40,946 nt of DNA from Bacteroidota bacterium (GTDB taxonomy: Bacteria > Bacteroidota > Bacteroidia > Bacteroidales > UBA12077): positions 15,376 through 56,321 of the forward strand of contig JBNJFT010000001.1 of NCBI GenBank assembly GCA_051747065.1, in the 5' to 3' direction. Shown one piece after another: positions 1-40,946 of the stretch. The position numbers were made by a program, and so were the translations under genes. The notes under the pieces were generated by a model. It was not told where the DNA came from. It ran no database searches and was given only the letters and a program-made list of their open reading frames with translations. Within the stretch, counting starts at the first letter, position 1. Each line of letters opens with the position of its first letter.

Positions 1-112
1 CTTCTTCTTCAAGCGGGGAGGCTTTGGCAATTCCGCAATCTGCAAAGCCAAGGCGCAAAGCTTCTGATTTTATGATTTGGCTGTATGTTGTTTCTTTATC
101 CAATAACATATA

Positions 113-330
113 AATTAGGTAGATTCAGAAGTAGAGGCAAATAATAAAATAACCAGCAATTAGCTAATGAGTAAGCAGTAAGCACTCTGCAGCAGGCAGT
201 GAACATGCTGCATGTAGTGGATAAACAAATTGTTCTCCATAATTTGCAGTAGAATAATCTAAAGTTTTGTGAGTTCTTTTCATATGTCGATGATTCAGCA
301 GCCTCGTTTTTTGATAATTTTGGTTAATTT
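113..330 (-). repeat. Modular intergenic repeat, copy A (X module plus a second head motif), reverse orientation
   Basis: 170-330 is the reverse complement of 40668-40828, equal in length (161 bp) and about 85 percent identical by eye. 113-134 is the reverse complement of the 40583-40604 head motif with 1 mismatch. Confidence 0.75.
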
Positions 331-404
331 CAATGCCGAAAATTATTACCCGGTCACGTAACACGCTAATAATTACAGCTTTAAGTTTCTATGAATGAAT
401 GCGC

Positions 405-725
405 CTAAATTAATCCCAGGTCCAGTTTGGCTTCTTCAGACATCATCTCCTTGTCCCATGGCGGATCGAATACGAGTTTAACGTCAACTTCGTTTACTTC
501 TTCTATTTCTTTAACCTTGTCATGAACTTCCTGCAGAATATCATCTGCAATCGGGCAGTTTGGAGCTGTGAGGGTCATTCGGACCTCTACGTTATTGTCA
601 TCATCTACATCAATGTTGTATATTAATCCCAAATCATAGACATTCACCGGAATTTCCGGGTCATATACTTCTTTGAGCGCCTTTACTATTTCGCCTTCAA
701 CAGCCAGAAAATCTTGTTCACTCAT
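405..725 (-). CDS. sufT: SUF system Fe-S cluster assembly protein, DUF59/SufT family
   Basis: The ORF track gives 405..794. I prefer the ATG at 725 (MSEQDFLAVEGEIV...) because the longer form overlaps the sufE 3' end. DUF59 motifs DPEIPVNVYDLGLIY and TLTAPNCP are present. It is the last gene of the suf operon. Confidence 0.85.
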   Translation of the reverse strand: MSEQDFLAVEGEIVKALKEVYDPEIPVNVYDLGLIYNIDVDDDNNVEVRMTLTAPNCPIADDILQEVHDKVKEIEEVNEVDVKLVFDPPWDKEMMSEEAKLDLGLI

Positions 726-774
726 AATTGTTGTTTTGTTTTTTAAATTGACAATCTGAACTATGAAAAGTTCA

Positions 775-1200
775 CTACTGGTTTTGTTTTGCATCGTAGG
801 CCATCGCGTAAGCCTTGATTTTATTAATCATGGCAACCAATCCGTTTGACCGTGTAGGCGAGAGGTTTTCTTTCAGCCCGATTTTATCAATGAAAAACAG
901 ATCAGCATCTTTAATTTCTTTGGGAGTTCTTCCTGAGAGAACTTCAATTAAAAGAGCAATAATGCCTTTTGTAATAATGGCATCACTGTCTGCGGAGAAT
1001 TTCAATGTACCATTATCCATCTCAGCATGTAACCATACTTTAGACTGGCACCCTTCAATCAGGTTGTCTTCTGTCTTTTGCTCCGGCGGCATTTCCGGTA
1101 AGTCTTTGCTTAATTCGATCAGGTAGTTATACTTATCCATCCAATCGTCAAACATCTGAAACTCTTCAATAATTTCTTGCTGCTTTTCTTCTAATGTCAT
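775..1200 (-). CDS. sufE: Cysteine desulfuration protein SufE
   Basis: 141 aa with the SufE-type motif EGCQSKVWL. It lies directly downstream of sufS. Confidence 0.9.
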   Translation of the reverse strand: MTLEEKQQEIIEEFQMFDDWMDKYNYLIELSKDLPEMPPEQKTEDNLIEGCQSKVWLHAEMDNGTLKFSADSDAIITKGIIALLIEVLSGRTPKEIKDADLFFIDKIGLKENLSPTRSNGLVAMINKIKAYAMAYDAKQNQ

Positions 1201-10685: not shown

Positions 10686-11906
10686 TTAAATGATATTTTG
10701 TTTAGGATAACATAAAAAATATTTTTTGACAGTTTTTGATAATATCGATAGATTGAGCATATCAGAAGCCTCTGTTATGTCTGTAACATCCTGATTCTTA
10801 AATAAAATCTGAATGTTTTCATTTTTAGCACTATATGCCTTATTGCTTATATAATTAGAAAAAACTAAATATTCAAGTTGCTCATTATTCATCTCATATT
10901 CTGCCTTTATGCCAGCTTTAATGATTTCAATTTTATCCTCATCAAAAGGAGCATTTTGTAAATCAATTTTAAATAATTTTCTGTTAAGCATATTTTGAGA
11001 CAGAAGGGAAAGCACCCTGTCATCGGATTCTGTCCACAGTTTAAGAGACGCCGCTATGTCATTGTCGTCTAATTTAGAATAATTTATTAGCAAATTTTGC
11101 GAATTGTCATCTTTGTATTTTTCTTTTAAAAAGTATTCCAATTGAGGCGTACAGCCAATGTTTTCTCCTTCGTTGATGAGGTATTTGGCTCTTTTCAAAA
11201 TGGATGAAACAAGCTGATCGGCTGAAATAACTGTTTTGTGGAAGTATACCTGCCAATACATGATCCACCGGGCAATAAGAAATTTTTCGATGGAATGGAC
11301 TCCTTTTGCTTCAATGACCAAATGATCATTGTGGACATTGAGCATTTTTATTATTCGATCAGAGCCTATAACACCTTCTGAAACACCGGTAAAGAAACTG
11401 TCTCTTCTCAGGTAATCCAATCTATCCATGTCTAATTGACTGGAAACCAGCTGATGCAGAAATTTTTTGTAATACTGGTTCTTAAAAATTTTGATAGCAA
11501 GGCTTAATTCCCCGTTAAATTCCTTGTTTAATTCATTCATAAAGAGAAGAGAAAATTCTTCATGTGAAAAGTCGGTTAGCCAAACATCTTCCAGTGTATG
11601 TGAAAGAGGCCCATGCCCGATGTCATGTAAGAGGATTGCGATCTTAGCTGCAAGAGCTTCTTCTTCAGTTATTTCATGCCCTTTTGAACGTATTATGTCA
11701 ATGGAAGATTGCATCAGATGCAGGGAACCCAGGGAATGCTGAAAACGTGTATGCATCGCACCGGGATAAACAAAATGCGTCAGCCCCAATTGTTTTATTC
11801 TTCTTAATCGTTGAAAATATGGGTGTTCAATAAGATCAAAAATGATCTCATCGAATATATTTATAAATCCGTAAACGGGGTCGTTAATAATTTTTTTCTT
11901 GTTCAT
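10686..11906 (-). CDS. HD domain-containing phosphohydrolase (dNTPase-like)
   Basis: HD motifs HSLGSLHL and [12 protein letters not shown]. The ORF track start at 11942 is a TTG lying inside a -7 box; the ATG at 11906 ([14 protein letters not shown]...) is preferred. Confidence 0.85.
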
Positions 11907-11939
11907 TATTGAATTATTTCTTGATTGATGAAAAGGTGT

Positions 11940-11947
11940 CAAAAGTA
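11940..11947 (-). promoter_or_regulatory. Candidate -7 box (TACTTTTG on - strand) for the HD/lpx cluster
   Basis: The reverse complement matches TAnnTTTG, 33 nt upstream of the ATG at 11906. Confidence 0.4.
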
Positions 11948-12063
11948 AAAAAATATTTAACTCGTTGAAAATCTTGTAGCTTAATAATATAGATACACCT
12001 TAAAAAAATGGGTTTTTATACAATAAAATCAGTTGGATACTTGTCATTTAATTAGATAATTGT

Positions 12064-12071
12064 TATTTTTG
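12064..12071 (+). promoter_or_regulatory. Candidate -7 box (TATTTTTG) of the rimP-nusA-infB promoter
   Basis: Exact TAnnTTTG match. A TTG lies about 20 nt upstream (acTTGtc). It is the only + strand promoter-like element in the divergent region. Confidence 0.45.
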
Positions 12072-12103
12072 CACCAGTAAAATATGAGAGGAGGGATTTT
12101 GCT

Positions 12104-12124
12104 GGGGACGTTGTCCCCTTTTTT
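12104..12124 (+). terminator. Intrinsic-terminator-like hairpin in the rimP leader
   Basis: GGGGAC-gtt-GTCCCC (6-bp GC-rich stem, 3-nt loop) followed by six T. It lies 33 nt upstream of the rimP ATG and about 30-45 nt downstream of the -7 box. Confidence 0.6.
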
Positions 12125-12157
12125 CGTATCAAAAACTAAGCCGAACAAGCCGGGAAG

Positions 12158-12616
12158 ATGGTAAAAGACAGAGAGATAGAAAAAGCAGTAAGAGATGTTT
12201 TGGATTCTGATAATTATTTTATCGTTGGAATTCAAAATAAGCAAGATACGATAAAAGTTATTGTTGATGGTTATAAAGGTATTGATCTGGAGAAATGTGG
12301 TGAAATCACAAGAAACCTGAGAAGCTCGTTTGGGGAAAAGGTTGATGATTACAATATAGAAGTGACATCACCCGGATTAACCTCCCCCTTTCAGGTGATA
12401 GAACAATATAAGAAGAATATCGGGCAGAAAGTTGAGACTCTTCTAAAAACGGGCGAAAAGATTACAGGGAAATTACAGGAAGTGAATCCGGACAGTATCC
12501 TTTTAGAGGAGAAAAAAAGAATTAAGACAGATAAGAATAAGAAAAAAACAGTGCGGGAAGAGAAAACAATAAAGTTTGATGAAATAAAATACACAAAATT
12601 GATAATATCATTTTAA
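12158..12616 (+). CDS. rimP: Ribosome maturation factor RimP
   Basis: 152 aa with a RimP-like sequence (EVTSPGL motif), immediately upstream of nusA. Confidence 0.88.
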   Translation: MVKDREIEKAVRDVLDSDNYFIVGIQNKQDTIKVIVDGYKGIDLEKCGEITRNLRSSFGEKVDDYNIEVTSPGLTSPFQVIEQYKKNIGQKVETLLKTGEKITGKLQEVNPDSILLEEKKRIKTDKNKKKTVREEKTIKFDEIKYTKLIISF

Positions 12617-12629
12617 AATTAATAGAGCG

Positions 12630-13865
12630 ATGGATAATTTGAATTTGTTTGATACCTTTTCTGAGTTCAAGGAGCTAAAGAATATAGACAGGCCTTCGAT
12701 GATGAATGTTTTGGAAGATGTTTTCCGCAAATCTCTTGAAAAGATTTTCGGAACCTCGGAAAATTTTGATATCATTATTAATATTGATAAGGGTGATTTT
12801 GAAATATGGAGGAACAGAGAAGTTGTTGAAGATGATGAGCTTGAAGATGACAACCTTCAAATACCTATTTCAAAAGCAAAGAAAATAGACGATGATTACG
12901 AAGTTGGAGAAGAAGTAACAGATGAGGTGAAACTGGAAGATTTTGGAAGAAGAGTGATTCTTTCTCTGAGACAACATCTTACTTCAAAAATTCTTGAGAT
13001 TGAAAGAAACAATGTATTTGAAAAATATAAGCAGCGTATAGGGCAAATTATAAGTGGTGAGGTTTACCAGGTTTGGAAACGCGAGCTCATGGTATTGGAT
13101 GATGAAGGAAACGAACTTATCATGCCACGCGATGAACAAATTCCTTCTGATCATTTCCGCAAGGGTGATCTTTTAAGAGCCGTTGTGGTAAGGGCTGAAA
13201 TGAGGAATAATACACCATTGATTATAATTTCACGGACTTCACCCGTATTTTTAGAGCGGTTATTTGAGTTTGAAGTTCCCGAGATATATGACGGCCTTAT
13301 CACCATAAAAAAAGTTGTGCGGGCTCCCGGGGAAAAAGCCAAAGTTGCAGTAGAATCTTATGACGACAGAATTGATCCGGTTGGATCGTGCGTTGGAATG
13401 AAAGGTTCAAGAATTCACGGTATTGTTCGCGAATTAAGAAATGAAAATATAGATGTAATTAACTATACAAATAACACACAACTATTTATTCAAAGAGCCC
13501 TGAGTCCTGCTAAAATCAACTCCATTAAGATTGATGACGAGAATAAAACAGCAGAGGTTTATCTTGATCCCGAGGAAGTCTCTCTGGCAATTGGAAAAGG
13601 CGGACTCAATATTAAACTGGCAAGTCAGCTGACAGGCTATGATTTAGATGTTTACAGAGAAGCGGAAGAAGATGAAGAGGACGTAAATATTGATGAATTT
13701 TCAGATGAAATCGATCAGTGGGTTATTGACACACTGAAATCTGTCGGTCTTGACACAGCAAAGAGTGTTTTGGAGCTTAGCAGGGAAGAACTCGAGCGGC
13801 GAACTGATTTAGAAGAAGAAACTATTGATGATATTACTCAAATTTTTAAATCAGAATTTGAATAA
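12630..13865 (+). CDS. nusA: Transcription termination/antitermination factor NusA
   Basis: S1 and KH domain motifs (CVGMKGSRI, AIGKGGLNIKLA). 411 aa, in rimP-nusA-infB synteny. Confidence 0.95.
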   Translation: MDNLNLFDTFSEFKELKNIDRPSMMNVLEDVFRKSLEKIFGTSENFDIIINIDKGDFEIWRNREVVEDDELEDDNLQIPISKAKKIDDDYEVGEEVTDEVKLEDFGRRVILSLRQHLTSKILEIERNNVFEKYKQRIGQIISGEVYQVWKRELMVLDDEGNELIMPRDEQIPSDHFRKGDLLRAVVVRAEMRNNTPLIIISRTSPVFLERLFEFEVPEIYDGLITIKKVVRAPGEKAKVAVESYDDRIDPVGSCVGMKGSRIHGIVRELRNENIDVINYTNNTQLFIQRALSPAKINSIKIDDENKTAEVYLDPEEVSLAIGKGGLNIKLASQLTGYDLDVYREAEEDEEDVNIDEFSDEIDQWVIDTLKSVGLDTAKSVLELSREELERRTDLEEETIDDITQIFKSEFE

Positions 13866-13927: not shown

Positions 13928-16900
13928 ATGGCAAAGGACAAAAAAATAACGAGATTGAGCAAGGTGGCAAGAGAATTCAATGTGGGGATTTCAACAATTG
14001 TGGATTTTCTTCATAAAAAGGGATATGGTATCGATTCTAACCCTAATGCAAAAGTATCCCCGGAACAATACAATCTTTTGGTGGATGAATACAGTACAGA
14101 TAGTGATGTTAAGAAACAATCTCAAAAGATAAATCTGGATAAATCCCACGAGAGCAGTAAGCATTCTATTTCTATTAATGATATTGAGCAGGAAACACAA
14201 GAAGATGACACAAACTCTGAAGAATCCGGAGACGATGAGGAAATTTTCATTAAAGATGTGAGTGGAAAAGAACAAAAAAAATCTGCTCAAAAACCCAAAG
14301 AAAAAGAGACCAGTAAAGAAGAATCAGAAAAAGAGAAAGCCGCTAAGGAAGAAAAAGCAGAAAAGGCCAGGAAAGAGAAAGAAAAACAGGAAAAAGAACC
14401 TAAGGTAGTAGGCAAAATTGATTTAGATTCAGTTACCAAAAAACAAAAAGCAGAAAAAGAAGAGGATAAAAGCCAGAAAAAACAACAAGAGACCCCCGAG
14501 AAAACGGAGAAAAAAGAAAAATCCAAACAACCTTCAACAAAAGAAACAGAAAAGAAAACCTCTAAGAAAGAGGAAACGAAAGCTCCCAAGAAATCTGAAA
14601 CTGTAAAGAAAGAAGAGGAAAAGGATAAGAAAGCCAAAAAACAGGCGAAAACAGAAAAACAAGAAACGGAAGAAGCCAAAAAAGAGGAAAAAACAGACGA
14701 GAAAGTGAAAAAAACAGAAAAACCCGCTGAAGAAACACCGGAGAATGTTGCTGTTGGTCAGAAAAATACTATAGATATCAAGGACGAAGAGGAAAAAGAA
14801 CAGATTAAGGTTGTCGGAAAAATAGATCTGGATTCACTAAATCAAAAAACAAGGCCGGATAGAAAGACGCGTAAAGAAAAAGAGGCAGAACGTACGAAAA
14901 AAGAGGGTACAAAAAAAGAGGGAGCCAAAAAAGAAAGTGCGAAGAAGGAAGAAGAGAAATCTACGGATGAAAGTACAAAACCGAAAAGAAAACGAAGAAA
15001 GCGTATTAATAAAGATAAAGAAAAAGTTCAGGTAGATAACAAGACGAAACAACAAGAAGGAACAAAGGAAAAGAAAGAGCCACCAAAAAAGAAAAAGTCT
15101 AAGAAAAAACGACCTGTTCGAAATGAAGTAGACGAGGAAGATGTTCAGAAGCAGGTAAAAGAAACCCTTTCAAGGCTTACTAGTAAAGGAAAGTCAAAAG
15201 GGTCAAAATACAGAAGAGAAAAACGACAGGCTATAAATGAAAAACAGCAGGAAGAAGCAGCCAAGCAGGAGGAGGAAAAGAATGTATTGAAGGTAACGGA
15301 GTTTGTTTCCGTAAATGAATTGGCTAGTATGATGGAGGTTCCTGTCAACGATGTAATTCAAACCTGTATGAATCTCGGGTTGCTCGTTTCAATGAACCAG
15401 CGCCTGGATGCAGAAACAATGGCATTGGTTGCTGATGAGTACAATTATAAAGTGGAATTTGTAAGTGTCGAAGTACAAGAGGCAATTAAAGATGAAGAAG
15501 ACAGAGAAGAGGATTTAGAACCTCGTGATCCAATTGTTACTGTCATGGGGCACGTTGACCATGGCAAAACTTCTTTACTTGACCACATTCGTAAAGCAAA
15601 CGTAATTGCCGGCGAGGCCGGAGGTATTACCCAGCATATCGGCGCTTATCGCGTTGAAGTCACTGATGAAAAAAGAATAACATTTTTAGACACTCCCGGT
15701 CACGAAGCTTTTACGGCAATGCGTGCGAGGGGTGCACAAATTACTGATGTGGCAATTATTGTTGTTGCCGCAGATGATAATGTTATGCCCCAAACTATTG
15801 AGGCAATCAATCATGCATCTGCAGCCGGAGTGCCTATAGTCTTCGCTATCAACAAGGTAGATAAGCCCGGCGCCAGTCCGGAACGAATTAAGGAAGAGCT
15901 GGCGAATATGAATTACCTTGTAGAAGAATGGGGCGGAAAATATCAATCACAGGATATTTCTGCCAAGAAGGGTGAAAACATTGAGGCTTTGCTGGAGAAA
16001 GTTCTGCTTGAGTCTGAGCTGCTTGACCTTAAAGCGAACCCGAATAAAAATGCCATTGGCACCGTACTTGAATCATGGCTTGACAAGGGACGAGGGTATG
16101 TTTCAAATATTCTTGTACAAGCCGGAAAGATGATAATTTCAGATGTTATATTAGCAGGAAGCCACATGGGAAGGGCTAAGGCAATGTTCAATGAAAGAGG
16201 TAAAGAAATTAAAGAAGTTGGTCCTTCACAACCTGTACAGCTTCTTGGTTTAAGCGGAGCACCTCAGGCAGGGGATAAATTTAATGTGATGGACACTGAA
16301 AAAGAGGCGAAAGAGATTGCAAACAAGAGATCGCAGCTTGAACGTGAGCAGACAATGAGGACACAGAAACACATTACCCTTGATGAAATTGGACGCCGTA
16401 TTGCAATTGGCAACTTTAAAGAGGTAAATCTCGTTGTTAAAGGTGATGTTGACGGTTCTGTCGAAGCACTTTCAGATGCATTTGCAAAACTAAGTACTGA
16501 AGAAATTCAAATTAACATTATACACAAAGGCGTAGGACAAATTACGGAATCTGACATCTTATTAGCTGCTGCATCAAATGCTGTAGTTATTGGTTTCCAG
16601 GTTCGGCCTTCAGCTTCTGCACGAAAGCTTGCTGCTAAAGAACAAATTGATATTCGTTTATACTCCATTATTTATGACGCCATCAATAATATGAAAGATG
16701 CTCTTGAGGGTATGCTTGAGCCGGAGATTAAAGAGGAGATAACCGGAAATGCAGAAGTGAAAGATATCTTTAAAATTAAAAAGGTTGGAACTATTGCCGG
16801 ATGTATTGTCAAAGATGGCAAGCTGGAACGAGACAGTAAAGTCCGGGTAATTCGTGATGGTATTGTAATTCACTCAGGTGAACTCGAAAGCTTGAAACGC

Positions 16901-17050: not shown

Positions 17051-17071
17051 TTGCTTTCCTTTATAAGAACT

Positions 17072-17099
17072 CAGAATACAGAATACAGAATACAGAATT
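17072..17099 (+). repeat. Tandem heptamer array (CAGAATA x3 + CAGAATT)
   Basis: Four head-to-tail 7-mers read directly from the sequence. They form the left edge of repeat copy B. Confidence 0.9.
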
Positions 17100-17296
17100 C
17101 CTACCTGCCGCCTGCCTCCCGGTAGGCAGGGCAGGCAGGCATAATGCGGTAATATCTAACTGTCAATTAAATGCAAAGATCATTGTATCTGATATCTTAA
17201 TATGTTAATTAAAAGAATGAGCGTTTTATAAAATTCTATTTAAAATTTGACCCCGCTTTTTAATCATTTTTGCATTTTTCGGGGTTTCGCCTTGCT

Positions 17297-17304
17297 TAAC
17301 TTTG
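17297..17304 (+). promoter_or_regulatory. Conserved -7-like box TAACTTTG inside repeat copy B
   Basis: Matches TAnnTTTG and is conserved in position in copies C and D. It sits 8 nt after the invariant 24-mer. Confidence 0.4.
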
Positions 17305-17388
17305 CCATTAACCTCCTGTTTTTCGTAACATTGCTTACTTGTGAATGTGACTGTTGATTATCAGAATATGACTGCAGAAAGTTACATG

Positions 17389-23901: not shown

Positions 23902-24117
23902 GGCGGCAGCTTTTGAATAGAGAATGCAGAATACAGACACCTACCTGCCGCCTGGCTGCAGGCAGAATACGATAAAACTAACTATCAACGAAATACAAAA
24001 AAATTGTATCTGATGTTTTAATGTGTTAATTGAAAGAATGAGCGTTTTATAAAATTCTATTTACAATTTGACCCTGCTTTTTTATCATTTTTGCATTTTT
24101 CGGGGTTTCACTTTACT

Positions 24118-24125
24118 TAATTTTG
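24118..24125 (+). promoter_or_regulatory. Conserved -7-like box TAATTTTG inside repeat copy C
   Basis: Matches TAnnTTTG with the same spacing from the invariant 24-mer as in copies B and D. Confidence 0.4.
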
Positions 24126-24306
24126 TTTTTAACTTCTTGTATTCCAAAACATTACTTGCTCATGAAAGTGCCTATTTAGGAAAAGGCGCGTTATTCAACG
24201 CCGGCCACTTTCTCCACTTAGTTTACTCAATCAACTCAGTCAACTCAATTTACTTTAATTCTCTCATTGCAAGAAATGAAAAGAATTCTATATCCTATTA
24301 GGTTCC

Positions 24307-24334
24307 GAATTCTGAATTCTGAATTCTGCATTCT
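24307..24334 (-). repeat. Tandem heptamer array (GAATTCT x3 + GCATTCT; reverse complement of AGAATTC/AGAATGC)
   Basis: Four head-to-tail 7-mers, inverted relative to the CAGAAT motif at the left end of copy C. Confidence 0.85.
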
Positions 24335-24397
24335 GTCTTCTAATTTACCTGTTTGACGTTTTTTTCCGAAATTTTCTAAAGAAATCTTACAACTGAC

Positions 24398-25324: not shown

Positions 25325-25332
25325 TACTTTTG
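25325..25332 (+). promoter_or_regulatory. Candidate -7 box (TACTTTTG) for tRNA-Ser
   Basis: Exact TAnnTTTG match 19 nt upstream of the tRNA 5' end. A TTG at 25302-25304 gives a spacing of about 20 nt. Confidence 0.45.
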
Positions 25333-25351: not shown

Positions 25352-25440
25352 GGAGAAGTGGCAGAGTGGCCGAATGCGGCGGTCTCGAAAACCGTTGTCC
25401 GGCTATCGCCGGACCGGGGGTTCGAATCCCCCCTTCTCCG
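25352..25440 (+). tRNA. tRNA-Ser (anticodon CGA)
   Basis: The cloverleaf folds by hand. The acceptor is GGAGAAG/CTTCTCC, the anticodon loop is CTCGAAA, the long variable arm is TCCGG..CCGGA, and the T-arm is GGGGG-TTCGAAT-CCCCC. No CCA is encoded. Confidence 0.93.
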
Positions 25441-25457
25441 CTTTTTAGATGAAATAC

Positions 25458-38952: not shown

Positions 38953-40357
38953 CGTTTGGACAAATATTGACTGGTTTACTGTTATTCTTTATGTTATTCT
39001 TGTGTTCATAGGGTGGTTGACAATTTATTCTGCTCTCTATAATGAAGAGCATAAGAGTGTTTTTGATCTTTCTCAACGGTATGGCAAACAATTTTTATGG
39101 ATATCTGCAGCATTTTTGCTCGCTATCCTTATTATGGTTATAGATAGTAATTTCTTTTCATTTTTTGCTTATGGCTTTTATGTGCTTGTAATCATCTTAT
39201 TGATAGCCGTGCTTTTTTTCGGAGAAGAAACTCAAGGTTCAAAAGCCTGGTTGAGAATTGGCAATGTGAAGTTCCAGCCTGCTGAATTTGCCAAAGTTGC
39301 TACTGCCTTAACCATTGCAAAGTATCTAAGTGGCTTTAACGTGAAATTAAATGTGCTAAAAACTTACTTTAGAGTAGCCATGCTCATCTTACTTCCTATG
39401 GCTTTGGTCTTTATTCATGATGCAGGTACGGCACTTGTATTTGTAGCCTTTCTTTTGCCACTATACAGAGAAGGTTTATCATCTGCTGTTTTATTATTAG
39501 GTGTATATTTTATTATCCTTTTTATTCTCTCTTTCCTGGTTGAAAAGATTATACTAACCCTGGGAGCTATTTTTATTGTTCATCTAATCTTCTTGTTCAT
39601 TCAACGAAATATAAAACAAACCCTGGTTTCTCTGCTCATTTTTATCGGAATATCTGGTCTTTTCCTTGGAATTAATCAATTATCCGGCTTCAGCATTGAC
39701 TATATATATATAATACTGGGAGGTTTTATCGGTTCGAGTATATTTTACCTCATTCTTTCATATTATCATAAAATTTCTAAAGTCCCATTATATATATTGT
39801 TTGTTTTTGCTTCTATTACATTTACGTATTCAATAGATTTTGCTTTTGACAGCTTCTTGCAACCTCATCAGCAAAGGCGGATAGTCCAAATAATGGGATT
39901 AGAAGACAGTCCGCAAGGTGCCGGTTACAATGTTAATCAATCAGTAATTGCTATCGGGTCGGGAGGTTTTTCCGGGAAAGGCTATTTGAAGGGGACTCAG
40001 ACCAAATATGATTTTGTACCTGAACAGAGTACAGATTTTATTTTCAGCACAATAGGGGAAGAATTTGGTTTTGTCGGGTCGTCTATTTTGATTATATTAT
40101 TTGTCACCCTGTTATTACGGCTGATATTTCTTGCAGAAAGACAGCGTTCTTTTTTTAGCCGGATTTATGGATATGGTGTAATTTCCGTTTTTTTATTCCA
40201 TTTTATAATCAATATCGGCATGACAATAGGTTTGGCACCTGTAATTGGCATTCCTTTACCTTTTATCAGCTATGGTGGCTCATCCCTTTGGGCTTTTACC
40301 GTAATGCTTTTTATTTTTATCCGGTTAGATGTGAGTCGGTTAAAAGTGTTAAGATAG
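38936..40357 (+). CDS. rodA: Rod shape-determining SEDS glycosyltransferase RodA
   Basis: SEDS family polytopic protein (PEQSTDFIFS, ISYGGSS). It overlaps the mrdA stop by 17 nt. Confidence 0.92.
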   Translation: MRRKINVWTNIDWFTVILYVILVFIGWLTIYSALYNEEHKSVFDLSQRYGKQFLWISAAFLLAILIMVIDSNFFSFFAYGFYVLVIILLIAVLFFGEETQGSKAWLRIGNVKFQPAEFAKVATALTIAKYLSGFNVKLNVLKTYFRVAMLILLPMALVFIHDAGTALVFVAFLLPLYREGLSSAVLLLGVYFIILFILSFLVEKIILTLGAIFIVHLIFLFIQRNIKQTLVSLLIFIGISGLFLGINQLSGFSIDYIYIILGGFIGSSIFYLILSYYHKISKVPLYILFVFASITFTYSIDFAFDSFLQPHQQRRIVQIMGLEDSPQGAGYNVNQSVIAIGSGGFSGKGYLKGTQTKYDFVPEQSTDFIFSTIGEEFGFVGSSILIILFVTLLLRLIFLAERQRSFFSRIYGYGVISVFLFHFIINIGMTIGLAPVIGIPLPFISYGGSSLWAFTVMLFIFIRLDVSRLKVLR

Positions 40358-40363
40358 GCAGTT

Positions 40364-40593
40364 TCAGAAGTATCGGCTATATTTCTATTTCTGAGGTAAC
40401 ACAGCTTTTTTCTATTTTTGATTGTTTTCGAGGTCGTAAAAGTTAAATAGATTTTTCATATGCAGGTATTTTATATTATCTCATTGCTAGCCAAGAAATG
40501 AATTCTATAGCCTTTAACTGTTACCAAATCGCTACTAACTACTTTTCTTTCAGCTAAAAAAATGTGTTTCTAAGATTATCTTCTACTTCTGAA
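40364..40593 (+). repeat. Short repeat unit D1 bounded by inverted TTCAGAAGTA / TACTTCTGAA
   Basis: 10-bp perfect inverted repeat (40364-40373 versus 40584-40593). The internal 40480-40520 resembles the tail of copy C (24263-24300). Confidence 0.5.
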
Positions 40594-40946
40594 TCTTCCT
40601 AATTATCAAAGGAATACAAAAATATTGTGTCTGGTATTTTAATGTGTTAATAAAAAGAATCAGCACTAAATTAACAAATATTATTAAAAAACGAGGTTAC
40701 GGAATTATTTACATACAAAAGGAACTCACAAAACTTTAGGTTATTCTAATGCGGATTATGGAGAGCAATTTGTTTATCCATTATGTGCTGCATATTCACT
40801 GCCTACTGCAAAGTGCTTACTGCTTACTTGCTACCCTGCTTTTTACTCATTTTTGCATTTTTCGGGGTTTCGATTTTCTTAATTTTGTCGTAAATTTCTT
40901 GCAATTCAAGATATTGTCTGCTTCTAAAGACACCTATTTTTCACTT
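40583..40946 (+). repeat. Modular intergenic repeat, copy D (head variant + module 1 + 161-bp X module + core), truncated by the window end
   Basis: Module 1 (40613-40664) and the core (40842-40897) align to copies B and C. 40668-40828 aligns to the reverse complement of 170-330. Confidence 0.75.
40890..40897 (+). promoter_or_regulatory. Conserved -7-like box TAATTTTG inside repeat copy D
   Basis: Matches TAnnTTTG with the same spacing from the invariant 24-mer as in copies B and C. Confidence 0.4.

What the first reader, a model, noticed from the sequence alone, without database searches (positions are those of the whole stretch)
24086..24125. Invariant 24-mer followed at fixed spacing by a conserved outward-facing TAAnTTTG -7 box in all three core-bearing copies
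CATTTTTGCATTTTTCGGGGTTTC is 100 percent identical in copies B (17265-17288), C (24086-24109) and D (40858-40881), although the flanking sequence diverges. Exactly 8 nt downstream each copy has CTTAA(C/T)TTTG, a match to the Bacteroidota sigma-A -7 consensus TAnnTTTG (17297-17304, 24118-24125, 40890-40897). This is preserved even though the surrounding tail is only about 60-67 percent identical. The TTTG inside the 24-mer lies 24 nt upstream of the -7 box. That is 3-5 nt longer than the canonical -33/-7 spacing, so the -33 assignment is uncertain. If the box is active, each element would launch a rightward transcript. In copies B and C that transcript runs antisense into the 3' end of the convergent neighbour (the UPF0182 gene and the dehydrogenase gene). 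The repeat would then be a portable promoter/sRNA or antisense-RNA cassette rather than inert DNA.
Basis: partly seen in the sequence, partly recalled or inferred. Interest (0 to 1): 0.7.

Follow-up and report, generated by a model that had tools for sequence, protein, structure and literature searches.

The report
Conserved arm of a Bacteroidales MITE
The invariant 24-mer and its "promoter box" are real, but they are part of one arm of a small mobile repeat (a MITE) that sits between convergent genes in an uncultured Bacteroidales bacterium, and the box is not conserved as a promoter in half of the related copies.

Summary
TAAYTTTG follows 8 nt later in all three copies. The invariant run is 25 nt, P about 1.5e-4 by column shuffling.

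Twenty-one further copies from metagenome contigs of close relatives show what it is. [quoted passage not shown] The evidence:
- terminal inverted repeats, GGCAnnTTCAGAAGTA ... TACTTsTGAAnnnGCC;
- flanking TA, with perfect 7-bp duplications in two copies;
- elements of 243-288 bp with no transposase;
- arms that recombine with at least three other arm types;
- 12 of 13 scorable copies between convergent genes;
- shorter spacers with no core-bearing element at the same sites in relatives.

The promoter reading is only partly supported. This lineage does use TAnnTTTG promoters, and only the T-first form is enriched upstream of genes. Yet 12 of 24 copies have G, C or A at that position and one lacks the box. 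There is no -33 element at canonical spacing. The spacer is more conserved than the box.

What constrains the 24-mer is unresolved. A weak plus-strand hairpin and a short open frame are the only leads. This is an undescribed but ordinary kind of element. Interest is low to moderate.

The parts
24070..24174 (+). Copy C of the core-bearing MITE arm ('Hc'). Hairpin left arm GACCCTG 24070-24076; 24-mer 24086-24109 (hairpin right arm CGGGGTT 24101-24107); TAATTTTG box 24118-24125; degenerate terminal inverted repeat TGCTCATGAAAGTGCC 24157-24172, followed by TA.
23963..24069 (+). Body of copy C homologous to the 'Type I' arm of metagenome copies (cagaatacgataaaactaactatcaacg ... tttacaattt). It has no intact outer inverted repeat on this side.
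17249..17353 (+). Copy B of the core-bearing arm. GACCCCG 17249-17255; 24-mer 17265-17288; TAACTTTG 17297-17304; inverted repeat TACTTGTGAATGTGAC 17336-17351.
17140..17248 (+). Type I-like body of copy B. It is preceded by a G+C-rich hairpin (17100-17139) and (CAGAATA)n repeats (17072-17099) directly after the infB stop.
40832..40936 (+). Copy D of the core-bearing arm. TACCCTG 40832-40838; 24-mer 40848-40871; TAATTTTG 40880-40887; decayed inverted repeat TGCTTCTAAAGACACC 40919-40934. Here it is joined to a Type I fragment (40599-40664) and to a segment (about 40665-40831) that is the reverse complement of part of copy A.
40357..40599 (+). Complete 243-bp MITE of the same family without the core. 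Inverted repeats GGCAGTTTCAGAAGTA / TACTTCTGAATCTTCC, TA on both sides. The TAG stop of the FtsW/RodA-family gene overlaps its left edge.
118..405 (+). 'Copy A': a 288-bp family member without the core. Inverted repeat GGTAGATTCAGAAGTA at 118-133. Flanked by a perfect 7-bp direct duplication TAAATTA (111-117 and 406-412).
23917..23942 (+). Left arm of the original inter-gene hairpin (GAGAATGCAGAATACAGA). Its partner TCTGAATTCTGCATTCTGTC lies at about 24316-24337. In the 96%-identical relative the two arms are adjacent, so everything between them in the window is inserted DNA.

Best explanation
The 24-mer and the box belong to one roughly 105-bp 'arm' of a modular, non-autonomous DNA transposon (MITE) family that has colonised the spacers between convergent genes in an uncultured Bacteroidales lineage.

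Shown:
- Full elements are 243-288 bp and carry no transposase.
- They end in imperfect 16-bp inverted repeats, GGCAnnTTCAGAAGTA ... TACTTsTGAAnnnGCC.
- They are usually flanked by TA. Two copies have perfect 7-bp target duplications.
- They are built from two arms drawn from at least four arm types.
- The core-bearing arm is one of these types. It is joined to different partners, with the join at or within a few bases of (A/T)TGACC.
- The same spacers in close relatives lack the core arm or hold other arm combinations.

Inferred:
- The elements are moved in trans by an unidentified transposase that recognises the inverted repeats.
- They persist in terminator-bearing spacers between convergent genes because insertion there harms no promoter.
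- The invariant 25-39-nt block is a cis-acting feature of the arm, either a protein-binding site or the weak plus-strand hairpin GACCCYG/CGGGGTT with a 25-nt T-rich loop. It is not a promoter.
- The TAAYTTTG match is an inherited piece of T-rich arm sequence. It may give some outward, antisense transcription in copies that keep the first T, including the three in this window. It is not the conserved function of the family.
For: Family and ends:
- The 20-mer scan found 19 family loci in metagenome contigs and one in a genome-collection contig (L004). One more copy came from a protein look-up.
- Matches to the inverted repeat number 4 in the window against 0.13 expected. They bracket the elements in the loci.
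- Target duplication: TAGGTTA around the 255-bp core-bearing element in L030, TAAATTA around window 118-405, and TA in most others.

Modularity:
- The same right arm is joined to Type I, Type II and other left parts.
- L047 carries a Type II arm plus an inverted Type I arm and no core arm.

Location:
- 12 of 13 copies with both neighbours called lie between convergent genes.

Insertion polymorphism:
- The mgtE-dehydrogenase spacer is 496 bp in the window. In the 96% relative it holds a short hairpin plus a group II intron. In the 93% relative it is 137 bp and holds a roughly 55-bp repeat-to-repeat remnant. In the 90% relative it is 27 bp.
- The ftsW-rpsT spacer is 76 bp in an 85% relative.
- The infB-UPF0182 spacer holds different elements in each relative.
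- A profile of the arm finds no core in any of these protein-anchored loci except L037/L038.

Block:
- The invariant run of 25 nt has P = 1.5e-4.
- The plus strand has a consensus hairpin whose only variation is C/U opposite G. The minus strand has none.

Box:
- Census of the box and the lineage's own promoter usage.

No known family:
- No Rfam family, no plasmid or phage match, no paper containing the sequences.
Against: - No autonomous partner with matching inverted repeats was found, so transposition is inferred from structure and polymorphism only.
- Most copies show only TA rather than a longer duplication.
- In the three window copies the inverted repeats are more decayed than the 24-mer (2-5 mismatches of 16). 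That is odd if the block matters only for mobilisation, and it hints at selection on the block in place.
- The hairpin is weak (-6.5 kcal/mol, 25-nt loop) and has no compensatory double changes.
- Twenty of the 24 copies were found with a 20-mer from inside the block (the three window copies define that 20-mer), so conservation of the block across the family is partly built in. Copies found without that bias are the three window copies and L037/L038. L037/L038 has a C-to-T change and a 1-nt insertion in the 24-mer.
Confidence: 0.7

Rival explanations
1. Portable outward sigma-A promoter. Each arm fires a rightward transcript from the TAAYTTTG box, about 50 nt inside the element end, giving antisense or small RNAs against the convergent neighbour.
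For: - There is a full TAnnTTTG in the three window copies and in eight others.
- The host lineage uses this box. It lies 18-90 nt upstream of several genes and of tRNA-Ser.
- Few of its promoters have a TTG at 19-21 nt (4 of 34), so the missing -33 is not fatal.
- The columns AAyTTTG are the least variable patch of the tail across ten lineages.
- There are precedents: the BrickBuilt MITE of Porphyromonas gingivalis has outward promoter activity (PMC4596501), and Bacteroides insertion sequences carry complete outward promoters (PMC9330008).
Against: - The first T of the box is the most variable column of the whole arm, with all four bases seen. Twelve of 24 copies lack it, including the most prolific subfamily.
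- Only T-first boxes are enriched upstream of genes in this lineage. TA is described as highly conserved in flavobacterial -7 boxes (PMC9723704).
- Chance matches to TAnnTTTG run at about 1.2 per kb in AT-rich spacers, so one match in a 270-bp element is expected.
- A promoter model does not explain the invariance of the 24-mer.
- There is no co-oriented downstream gene in 15 of 19 copies.
Confidence: 0.2
2. The block encodes the start of a small hydrophobic peptide on the plus strand, (M/L)TLLFNHFCIFRGFxLLNFVxNxL, 24 to about 77 residues long. The 24-mer would be HFCIFRGF and the box Leu-Asn-Phe. A type I toxin-like peptide would be one possibility.
For: - This is the only one of six frames with no stop in ten lineages over 23 codons.
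- Arm homology begins at or within a few bases of an ATG or TTG, which has A-rich upstream sequence.
- The hypervariable first box base is the third position of a CTN Leu codon, and all four bases are seen. The Y is the Asn wobble position.
- L019 has an in-frame 3-nt deletion.
- pN/pS is lowest in this frame: 0.54 against 0.63-0.78 in the others.
Against: - The excess of synonymous variants is not significant: 13 of 44 against 25% expected, P = 0.31.
- Variation is not three-periodic overall: 16, 14 and 19 by codon position.
- There are frameshifts in L026, L033 and L037/L038. There is no start at the homologous position in D, L004 and L019 (D and L004 have upstream in-frame starts), and L006, L024 and L027 are cut short at the 5' end. 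The C-terminal length varies from 24 to 77 residues.
- The composition (F, L, I, N, Y, C) is what T-rich DNA gives when translated.
- The protein database holds only two tiny predicted ORFs of this kind.
Confidence: 0.08
3. The arm is the right end of the lost autonomous parent element, and the block is the 3' end of its transposase gene reading towards the inverted repeat. Conservation would then be inherited from selection on the parent.
For: - The open plus frame ends 45 nt or less before the element tip in several subfamilies (TAA in the main subfamily and in L022). That is a common layout in insertion sequences.
- MITE arms are normally derived from the ends of insertion sequences (general knowledge).
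Against: - No protein longer than 55 residues among 5.8 billion clusters contains the peptide, although the same metagenomes are in that database.
- In Type I copies the frame is closed by a stop two codons upstream of the start.
- The hydrophobic, Cys- and Phe-rich sequence is unlike transposase C-termini.
Confidence: 0.07
4. The block is a host-exapted cis-RNA element. It would be a plus-strand hairpin with a T-rich loop carried into the 3' untranslated region of the upstream gene, acting on mRNA stability, termination or protein binding.
For: - The hairpin is predicted on the plus strand only. The left arm varies solely by C-to-U changes that keep G-U pairs, at two stem positions where about half of 11 sequences carry each form.
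- No structure is predicted on the minus strand.
- The block is better conserved than the inverted repeats in the decayed window copies.
- The window has lost the canonical infB terminator that relatives keep.
Against: - The stem is only 7 bp with a 25-nt loop, at -6.5 kcal/mol. There is no compensatory double change.
- The whole element folds no better than shuffles, with z of -0.1 and -0.7.
- There is no U-tract after the stem.
- Between convergent genes the orientation is not informative.
- No Rfam match.
Confidence: 0.1

Closest known systems
BrickBuilt and other MITEs of Porphyromonas gingivalis (Bacteroidales), PMC4596501
   Same: It is a small non-coding repeat with terminal inverted repeats in a Bacteroidales genome. 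It is exclusively intergenic and present in multiple copies, and it has leader and tail segments that can occur in different combinations. Outward promoter activity has been proposed for it.
   Different: There is no sequence similarity. The inverted repeats differ (GAGACCTTTGCA against GGCAnnTTCAGAAGTA). There is no internal 23-nt minisatellite. Here the promoter-like box is not conserved across copies, and copies sit almost only between convergent genes.
Correia repeat-enclosed elements of Neisseria (from my own knowledge; cited in the reference list of PMC9330008)
   Same: It is a MITE of 100-300 bp with inverted repeats and a TA target. It is inserted near gene ends, has internal conserved protein-binding or promoter-like sequences, and comes in subtypes with different internal parts.
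   Different: It is from a different phylum and has a different sequence. Correia promoters and the IHF site were shown by experiment, whereas nothing has been tested here. The arm-shuffled structure seen here, with at least four arm types, is more pronounced.
Outward promoters carried by Bacteroides insertion sequences (IS1186, IS1187, IS1168/1169, IS4351), PMC9330008
   Same: These are mobile elements of Bacteroidota that carry a TAnnTTTG-type promoter facing out of one end.
   Different: They are autonomous insertion sequences that activate a downstream co-oriented gene. Here the element is non-autonomous, faces the 3' end of a convergent gene, and has lost the critical T in half of its copies.

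Membership tests
[quoted passage not shown] | Small size (about 50-1000 bp) and no transposase gene | tested here: met
   Complete units are 243-288 bp (window 40357-40599, window 118-405; 255-263 bp in L030, L010, L033, L035). The longest open frame through the arm is 82 codons with no database relatives.
[quoted passage not shown] | Terminal inverted repeats | tested here: met
   GGCAnATTCAGAAGTAG matches four times in the window against 0.13 expected. Paired, inverted matches bound the repeat in most loci. The core-bearing arm has a diverged version, TACTTGTGAATACGCC.
[quoted passage not shown] | Target-site duplication | tested here: inconclusive
   There are perfect 7-bp duplications in two copies: TAAATTA at window 111-117 and 406-412, and TAGGTTA in L030. 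TA lies on both sides in most others, and several copies have none. TA may instead be part of the repeat.
[quoted passage not shown] | Many dispersed copies at unrelated loci, with presence/absence polymorphism | tested here: met
   More than 20 loci have different flanking genes. The mgtE, ftsW and infB spacers in relatives lack the core arm or hold different elements.
[quoted passage not shown] | An autonomous partner element with the same inverted repeats | not testable with these tools
   No pair of inverted repeats enclosing a transposase was found in about 290 kb of the loci scanned. The IS3-family element next to the arm in L023 appears to have unrelated ends (by eye).
Bacteroidota sigma-A promoter (-33 TTTG / -7 TAnnTTTG) | -7 box TAnnTTTG, conserved among homologous copies | tested here: not met
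   It is present in the three window copies. Across the family it is a full match in 11 of 24, and the first base is G, C or A in 12. Only T-first boxes behave as promoters in this lineage.
Bacteroidota sigma-A promoter (-33 TTTG / -7 TAnnTTTG) | -33 TTTG/TTG about 19-21 nt upstream | tested here: not met
   The nearest TTTG is 24 nt upstream and is invariant. The weight of this is low, because only 4 of 34 candidate promoters in the lineage have TTG at 19-21 nt.
Bacteroidota sigma-A promoter (-33 TTTG / -7 TAnnTTTG) | A mapped transcription start and a transcript | not testable with these tools
   No transcript data were available.
Known RNA families (Rfam 15) | A match to a covariance model | tested here: not met
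   The only window hit is tRNA-Ser. Nothing was found at E of 5 or below on the elements apart from a chance snoRNA hit.

The most novel reading that the evidence does not exclude
The invariant 25-39-nt block is not needed for transposition. Instead it is a functional module that the MITE arm distributes to the 3' ends of convergent genes. It could be an antisense promoter in T-first copies, a plus-strand RNA hairpin or protein-binding site, or a 24-36-residue hydrophobic peptide. It would be kept by selection in place after the inverted repeats decay, so that many unrelated genes are wired to one common factor.
Probability: 0.15. Interest if true: 0.55.

Novelty: new member of a known kind. 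Interest (0 to 1): 0.3.

Why it matters
It explains a striking repeat without invoking a new mechanism. Annotators of Bacteroidales metagenome-assembled genomes will meet these arms at contig breaks and in spacers between convergent genes. Four of the 20 scan-ascertained family copies lie within about 100 nt of a contig end; those contigs may have broken in the repeat. The family shows unusually free shuffling of arms and repeated insertion into the same terminator spacers. That makes those spacers useful markers of strain divergence. If the conserved block proves to be functional in place, it would be an example of a regulatory module spread by a MITE in Bacteroidota. So far only the BrickBuilt element offers experimental hints of that.

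Tried and rejected
- **Minus-strand coding (..KLSKAKPRKMQK*).** The frames are only 13-42 codons long, closed by stops, with no conserved start.
- **Plus-strand small ORF.** I tested it with a synonymous/non-synonymous variant count (P = 0.31), a periodicity count and pN/pS in six frames. The support is weak and not significant. The protein database search gave only two tiny ORFs.
- **Structured RNA.** There is no Rfam match. The whole-element fold has z of -0.1 and -0.7. The minus strand has no consensus structure.
- **Plasmid or phage origin.** No blastn match. There were no hits in viral contigs.
- **Genome-collection scan.** It returned only chance hits, plus one short misbinned contig, L004. 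The host genome is not in that collection, and the window's MgtE is not on record.
- **IS3-family element beside the arm in L023 as the autonomous partner.** Its ends appear unrelated (by eye) and it simply abuts the arm.
- **Orientation bias relative to the upstream gene.** It looked striking at 13 of 13, but it is uninformative, because flipping a convergent spacer gives a convergent spacer. The real signal is the preference for convergent spacers.
- **Sigma-54, ECF-type and IHF-like readings of the 24-mer.** I checked these by eye against the consensus sequences as I recall them, and none fits.
- **Literature search for the sequences.** Nothing was found.

Full report
**1. Observation**

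The 24-mer CATTTTTGCATTTTTCGGGGTTTC is present exactly three times, all on the + strand, at 17265, 24086 and 40848. None is expected by chance. CTTAAYTTTG follows 8 nt downstream in each copy.

I aligned the three copies without gaps over 105 nt.
- 68 columns are invariant.
- The longest invariant run is 25 nt, reached by 0.015% of column shuffles.
- The tail after the 24-mer is 57-69% identical pairwise.

The 24-mer is therefore significantly conserved. By my rough estimate (not a computed test), the box's conservation among these three copies alone would arise by chance about one time in three.

**2. Host and context**

The window is housekeeping chromosome:
- rimP-nusA-infB
- UPF0182
- rRNA adenine dimethylase (Pfam RrnaAD), mgtE
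- a 3-hydroxyisobutyrate-type dehydrogenase
- PBP2, FtsW/RodA

The closest MgtE and IF-2 relatives are from metagenome-assembled Bacteroidales. The lineage uses Bacteroidota-type promoters. TAnnTTTG lies 18-90 nt upstream of several genes and 20 nt upstream of tRNA-Ser.

I then looked at 78 upstream regions from the window and from related contigs.
- The T-first box is enriched on the sense strand: 34 sense against 14 antisense.
- 21 of the 34 lie 23-48 nt from the ATG.
- G-, C- and A-first versions are not enriched.
- A TTG at 19-21 nt upstream of the box is rare (4 of 34).

**3. Related copies**

The host genome is absent from the genome collection. A scan of metagenome contigs with an internal 20-mer gave 19 true family members, mostly from two JGI samples. 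The genome-collection scan added one more (L004). The remaining hits from both scans were chance matches. A protein look-up added one more copy, L037/L038, in which the 24-mer has a C-to-T change and a 1-nt insertion. A profile of the arm found no further diverged copies in any fetched locus.

**4. What the repeat is**

*Terminal inverted repeats.* The copies are bounded by imperfect inverted repeats, GGCAnnTTCAGAAGTA on the left and TACTTsTGAAnnnGCC on the right. The pattern matches four times in the window against 0.13 expected. One of those matches is the right end of copy B.

*Other family members in the window.* The window holds a complete 243-bp family member without the core at 40357-40599. 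It also holds a 288-bp member at 118-405, flanked by a perfect 7-bp duplication TAAATTA.

*Target duplication.* A 255-bp core-bearing element in L030 is flanked by a perfect TAGGTTA. Most others have TA on both sides.

*Modular arms.* The same 105-115-bp right arm (start of homology at (A/T)TGACC, then the 24-mer, the box and the inverted repeat) is joined to at least three unrelated left parts. In L047, a Type II arm is joined to an inverted Type I arm with no core arm at all. An element is thus two arms, each an inverted repeat plus about 110 nt. The finding lies in one arm type.

*Size and coding.* The units are small and encode no transposase. No autonomous partner was found in the data held. 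An IS3-family element in L023 merely abuts an arm.

**5. Location and mobility**

Of 13 copies with both neighbours called, 12 lie between convergent genes and one lies between tandem genes. An apparent orientation bias relative to the left-hand gene is uninformative in convergent spacers.

Orthologous spacers differ between relatives.

| Spacer | Genome | Content |
|---|---|---|
| mgtE-dehydrogenase | window | 496 bp |
| mgtE-dehydrogenase | 96% relative (L039) | short hairpin GAATGCAGAAT..ATTCTGCATTC plus a group II intron |
| mgtE-dehydrogenase | 93% relative (L041) | 137 bp, with a roughly 55-bp repeat-to-repeat remnant |
| mgtE-dehydrogenase | 90% relative (L043) | 27 bp |
| ftsW-rpsT | 85% relative (L045) | 76 bp |
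| infB-UPF0182 | four relatives | a different element in each, never the core arm |

In the window, the two hairpin arms are about 380 bp apart, so the repeat mosaic sits in the loop of that hairpin. The ftsW-rpsT spacer is, and the infB-UPF0182 spacers are. This is insertion polymorphism at hot spots, as expected for a MITE.

**6. The promoter reading**

Among 24 arm copies the spacing is fixed: 12 nt after CGGGG in 22 copies. The box itself is not fixed:
- 11 copies have TAnnTTTG.
- 10 have G at the first base, one has C and one has A.
- Two of these also have CTTG instead of TTTG.
- One copy has no box.

Across ten lineages the first base of the box is the most variable column of the arm, with four states. 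A..TTTG is nearly invariant. Only T-first boxes behave as promoters in this lineage. TA is reported as highly conserved in flavobacterial -7 boxes (PMC9723704). So the box is not conserved as a promoter.

Three further points argue against the promoter reading:
- The 24-mer would be the spacer plus an off-register -33, yet it is more conserved than the box.
- Chance TAnnTTTG matches occur at about 1.2 per kb in such spacers.
- Copies almost never have a co-oriented gene downstream.

The three window copies keep the T, so weak outward antisense transcription from them remains possible. Precedents exist in BrickBuilt (PMC4596501) and in Bacteroides insertion sequences (PMC9330008).

**7. What constrains the 24-mer**

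*Structured RNA.*
- No Rfam family matches.
- The whole element does not fold better than shuffles.
- On the plus strand only, there is a consensus hairpin GACCCYG/CGGGGTT with a 25-nt T-rich loop. Its only variation is C/U opposite G. It is weak (-6.5 kcal/mol) and has no compensatory changes.

*Short plus-strand frame.* The frame (M/L)TLLFNHFCIFRGFxLLNFVxNxL is the only one of six frames free of stops. The box would then be Leu-Asn-Phe, which fits its wobble-like variation. But the evidence is weak:
- The synonymous excess is not significant (P = 0.31).
- pN/pS is only slightly lower than in the other frames.
- Frameshifts and missing starts are frequent.
- No longer protein carries the peptide.

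*Minus-strand frame.* I rejected this.

*Conclusion.* I favour a cis-acting role for the arm, as a binding site or hairpin. One point cuts against a purely transpositional role: in the decayed window copies the inverted repeats are less conserved than the block.

**8. Comparison and verdict**

Structurally this is a MITE. The size, inverted-repeat, dispersion and polymorphism criteria are met. The target duplication is partly met. The autonomous partner could not be tested. No sequence relative was found in Rfam, in the plasmid or phage collections, or in the literature. It is therefore a new member of a known kind.

Interest is low to moderate.

Noticed in passing
window 17072-17099, 23917-23942 and 24307-24340; also the flanks of L035, L024 and L033: Heptamer repeats (CAGAATA)n on one side and (TATTCTG)n on the other form long hairpins in many spacers of this lineage. 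MITE arms often sit inside them. In the 96% relative L039 (11361-11390), the same site is a plain hairpin with a 10-bp stem.
   Followed up: partly
L039 about 11390-13440: A group II intron (RVT_1 reverse transcriptase ORF at 11465-12754, minus strand) is inserted directly beside the terminator hairpin in the mgtE-dehydrogenase spacer of the 96% relative. This is the same spacer that holds copy C in the window.
   Followed up: no
window 17051-17100, compared with L047 8160-8240, L048 8148-8230 and L050 8094-8160: Relatives have a canonical hairpin-plus-T-tract terminator right after the infB stop. The window lacks it. In its place are the heptamer repeats and a G+C-rich hairpin (17100-17139) that belongs to the repeat.
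   Followed up: no
window 40355-40357 and 405-407: The stop codons of the FtsW/RodA-family gene (TAG) and of the Fe-S assembly gene 405-794 (minus strand) overlap the TA or edge of a MITE.
   Followed up: no
L041 5760-5815: There is a roughly 55-bp mini element made of little more than two inverted repeats (GGCGCATTTATGAGTA ... TTTCTGAATATGCC) at the orthologous mgtE spacer of the 93% relative. A similar mini element of about 85 bp lies in the infB spacer of L050/L051.
   Followed up: partly
L023 86-1378: An IS3-family insertion sequence (orfA 104-487, orfB 574-1326) starts about 18 nt after the end of a core-bearing arm. The contig begins inside the 24-mer, which suggests that assemblies break in this repeat.
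   Followed up: partly
window 25325-25332: TACTTTTG lies 20 nt upstream of tRNA-Ser(CGA) (25352-25441), with a TTG at a 20-nt spacer. It is a clean example of the lineage's promoter. rimP has the same layout at 12064.
   Followed up: partly
window 14300-15270: There are imperfect repeats rich in AAG, GAA and AAA inside infB. They encode the Lys/Glu-rich N-terminal region of IF-2 and account for most direct-repeat families in the window.
   Followed up: no
window 24185-24202 (minus strand): A terminator-like hairpin GGCGTTGAATAACGCGCC followed by TTTTCC lies immediately right of copy C's end, about 200 nt beyond the dehydrogenase stop codon.
   Followed up: no
window 24240-24300 and 40470-40530: A further short repeat module (ctcattgc..aagaaatga..attctata) is shared between the copy C spacer and the 243-bp element at 40357-40599.
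   Followed up: no
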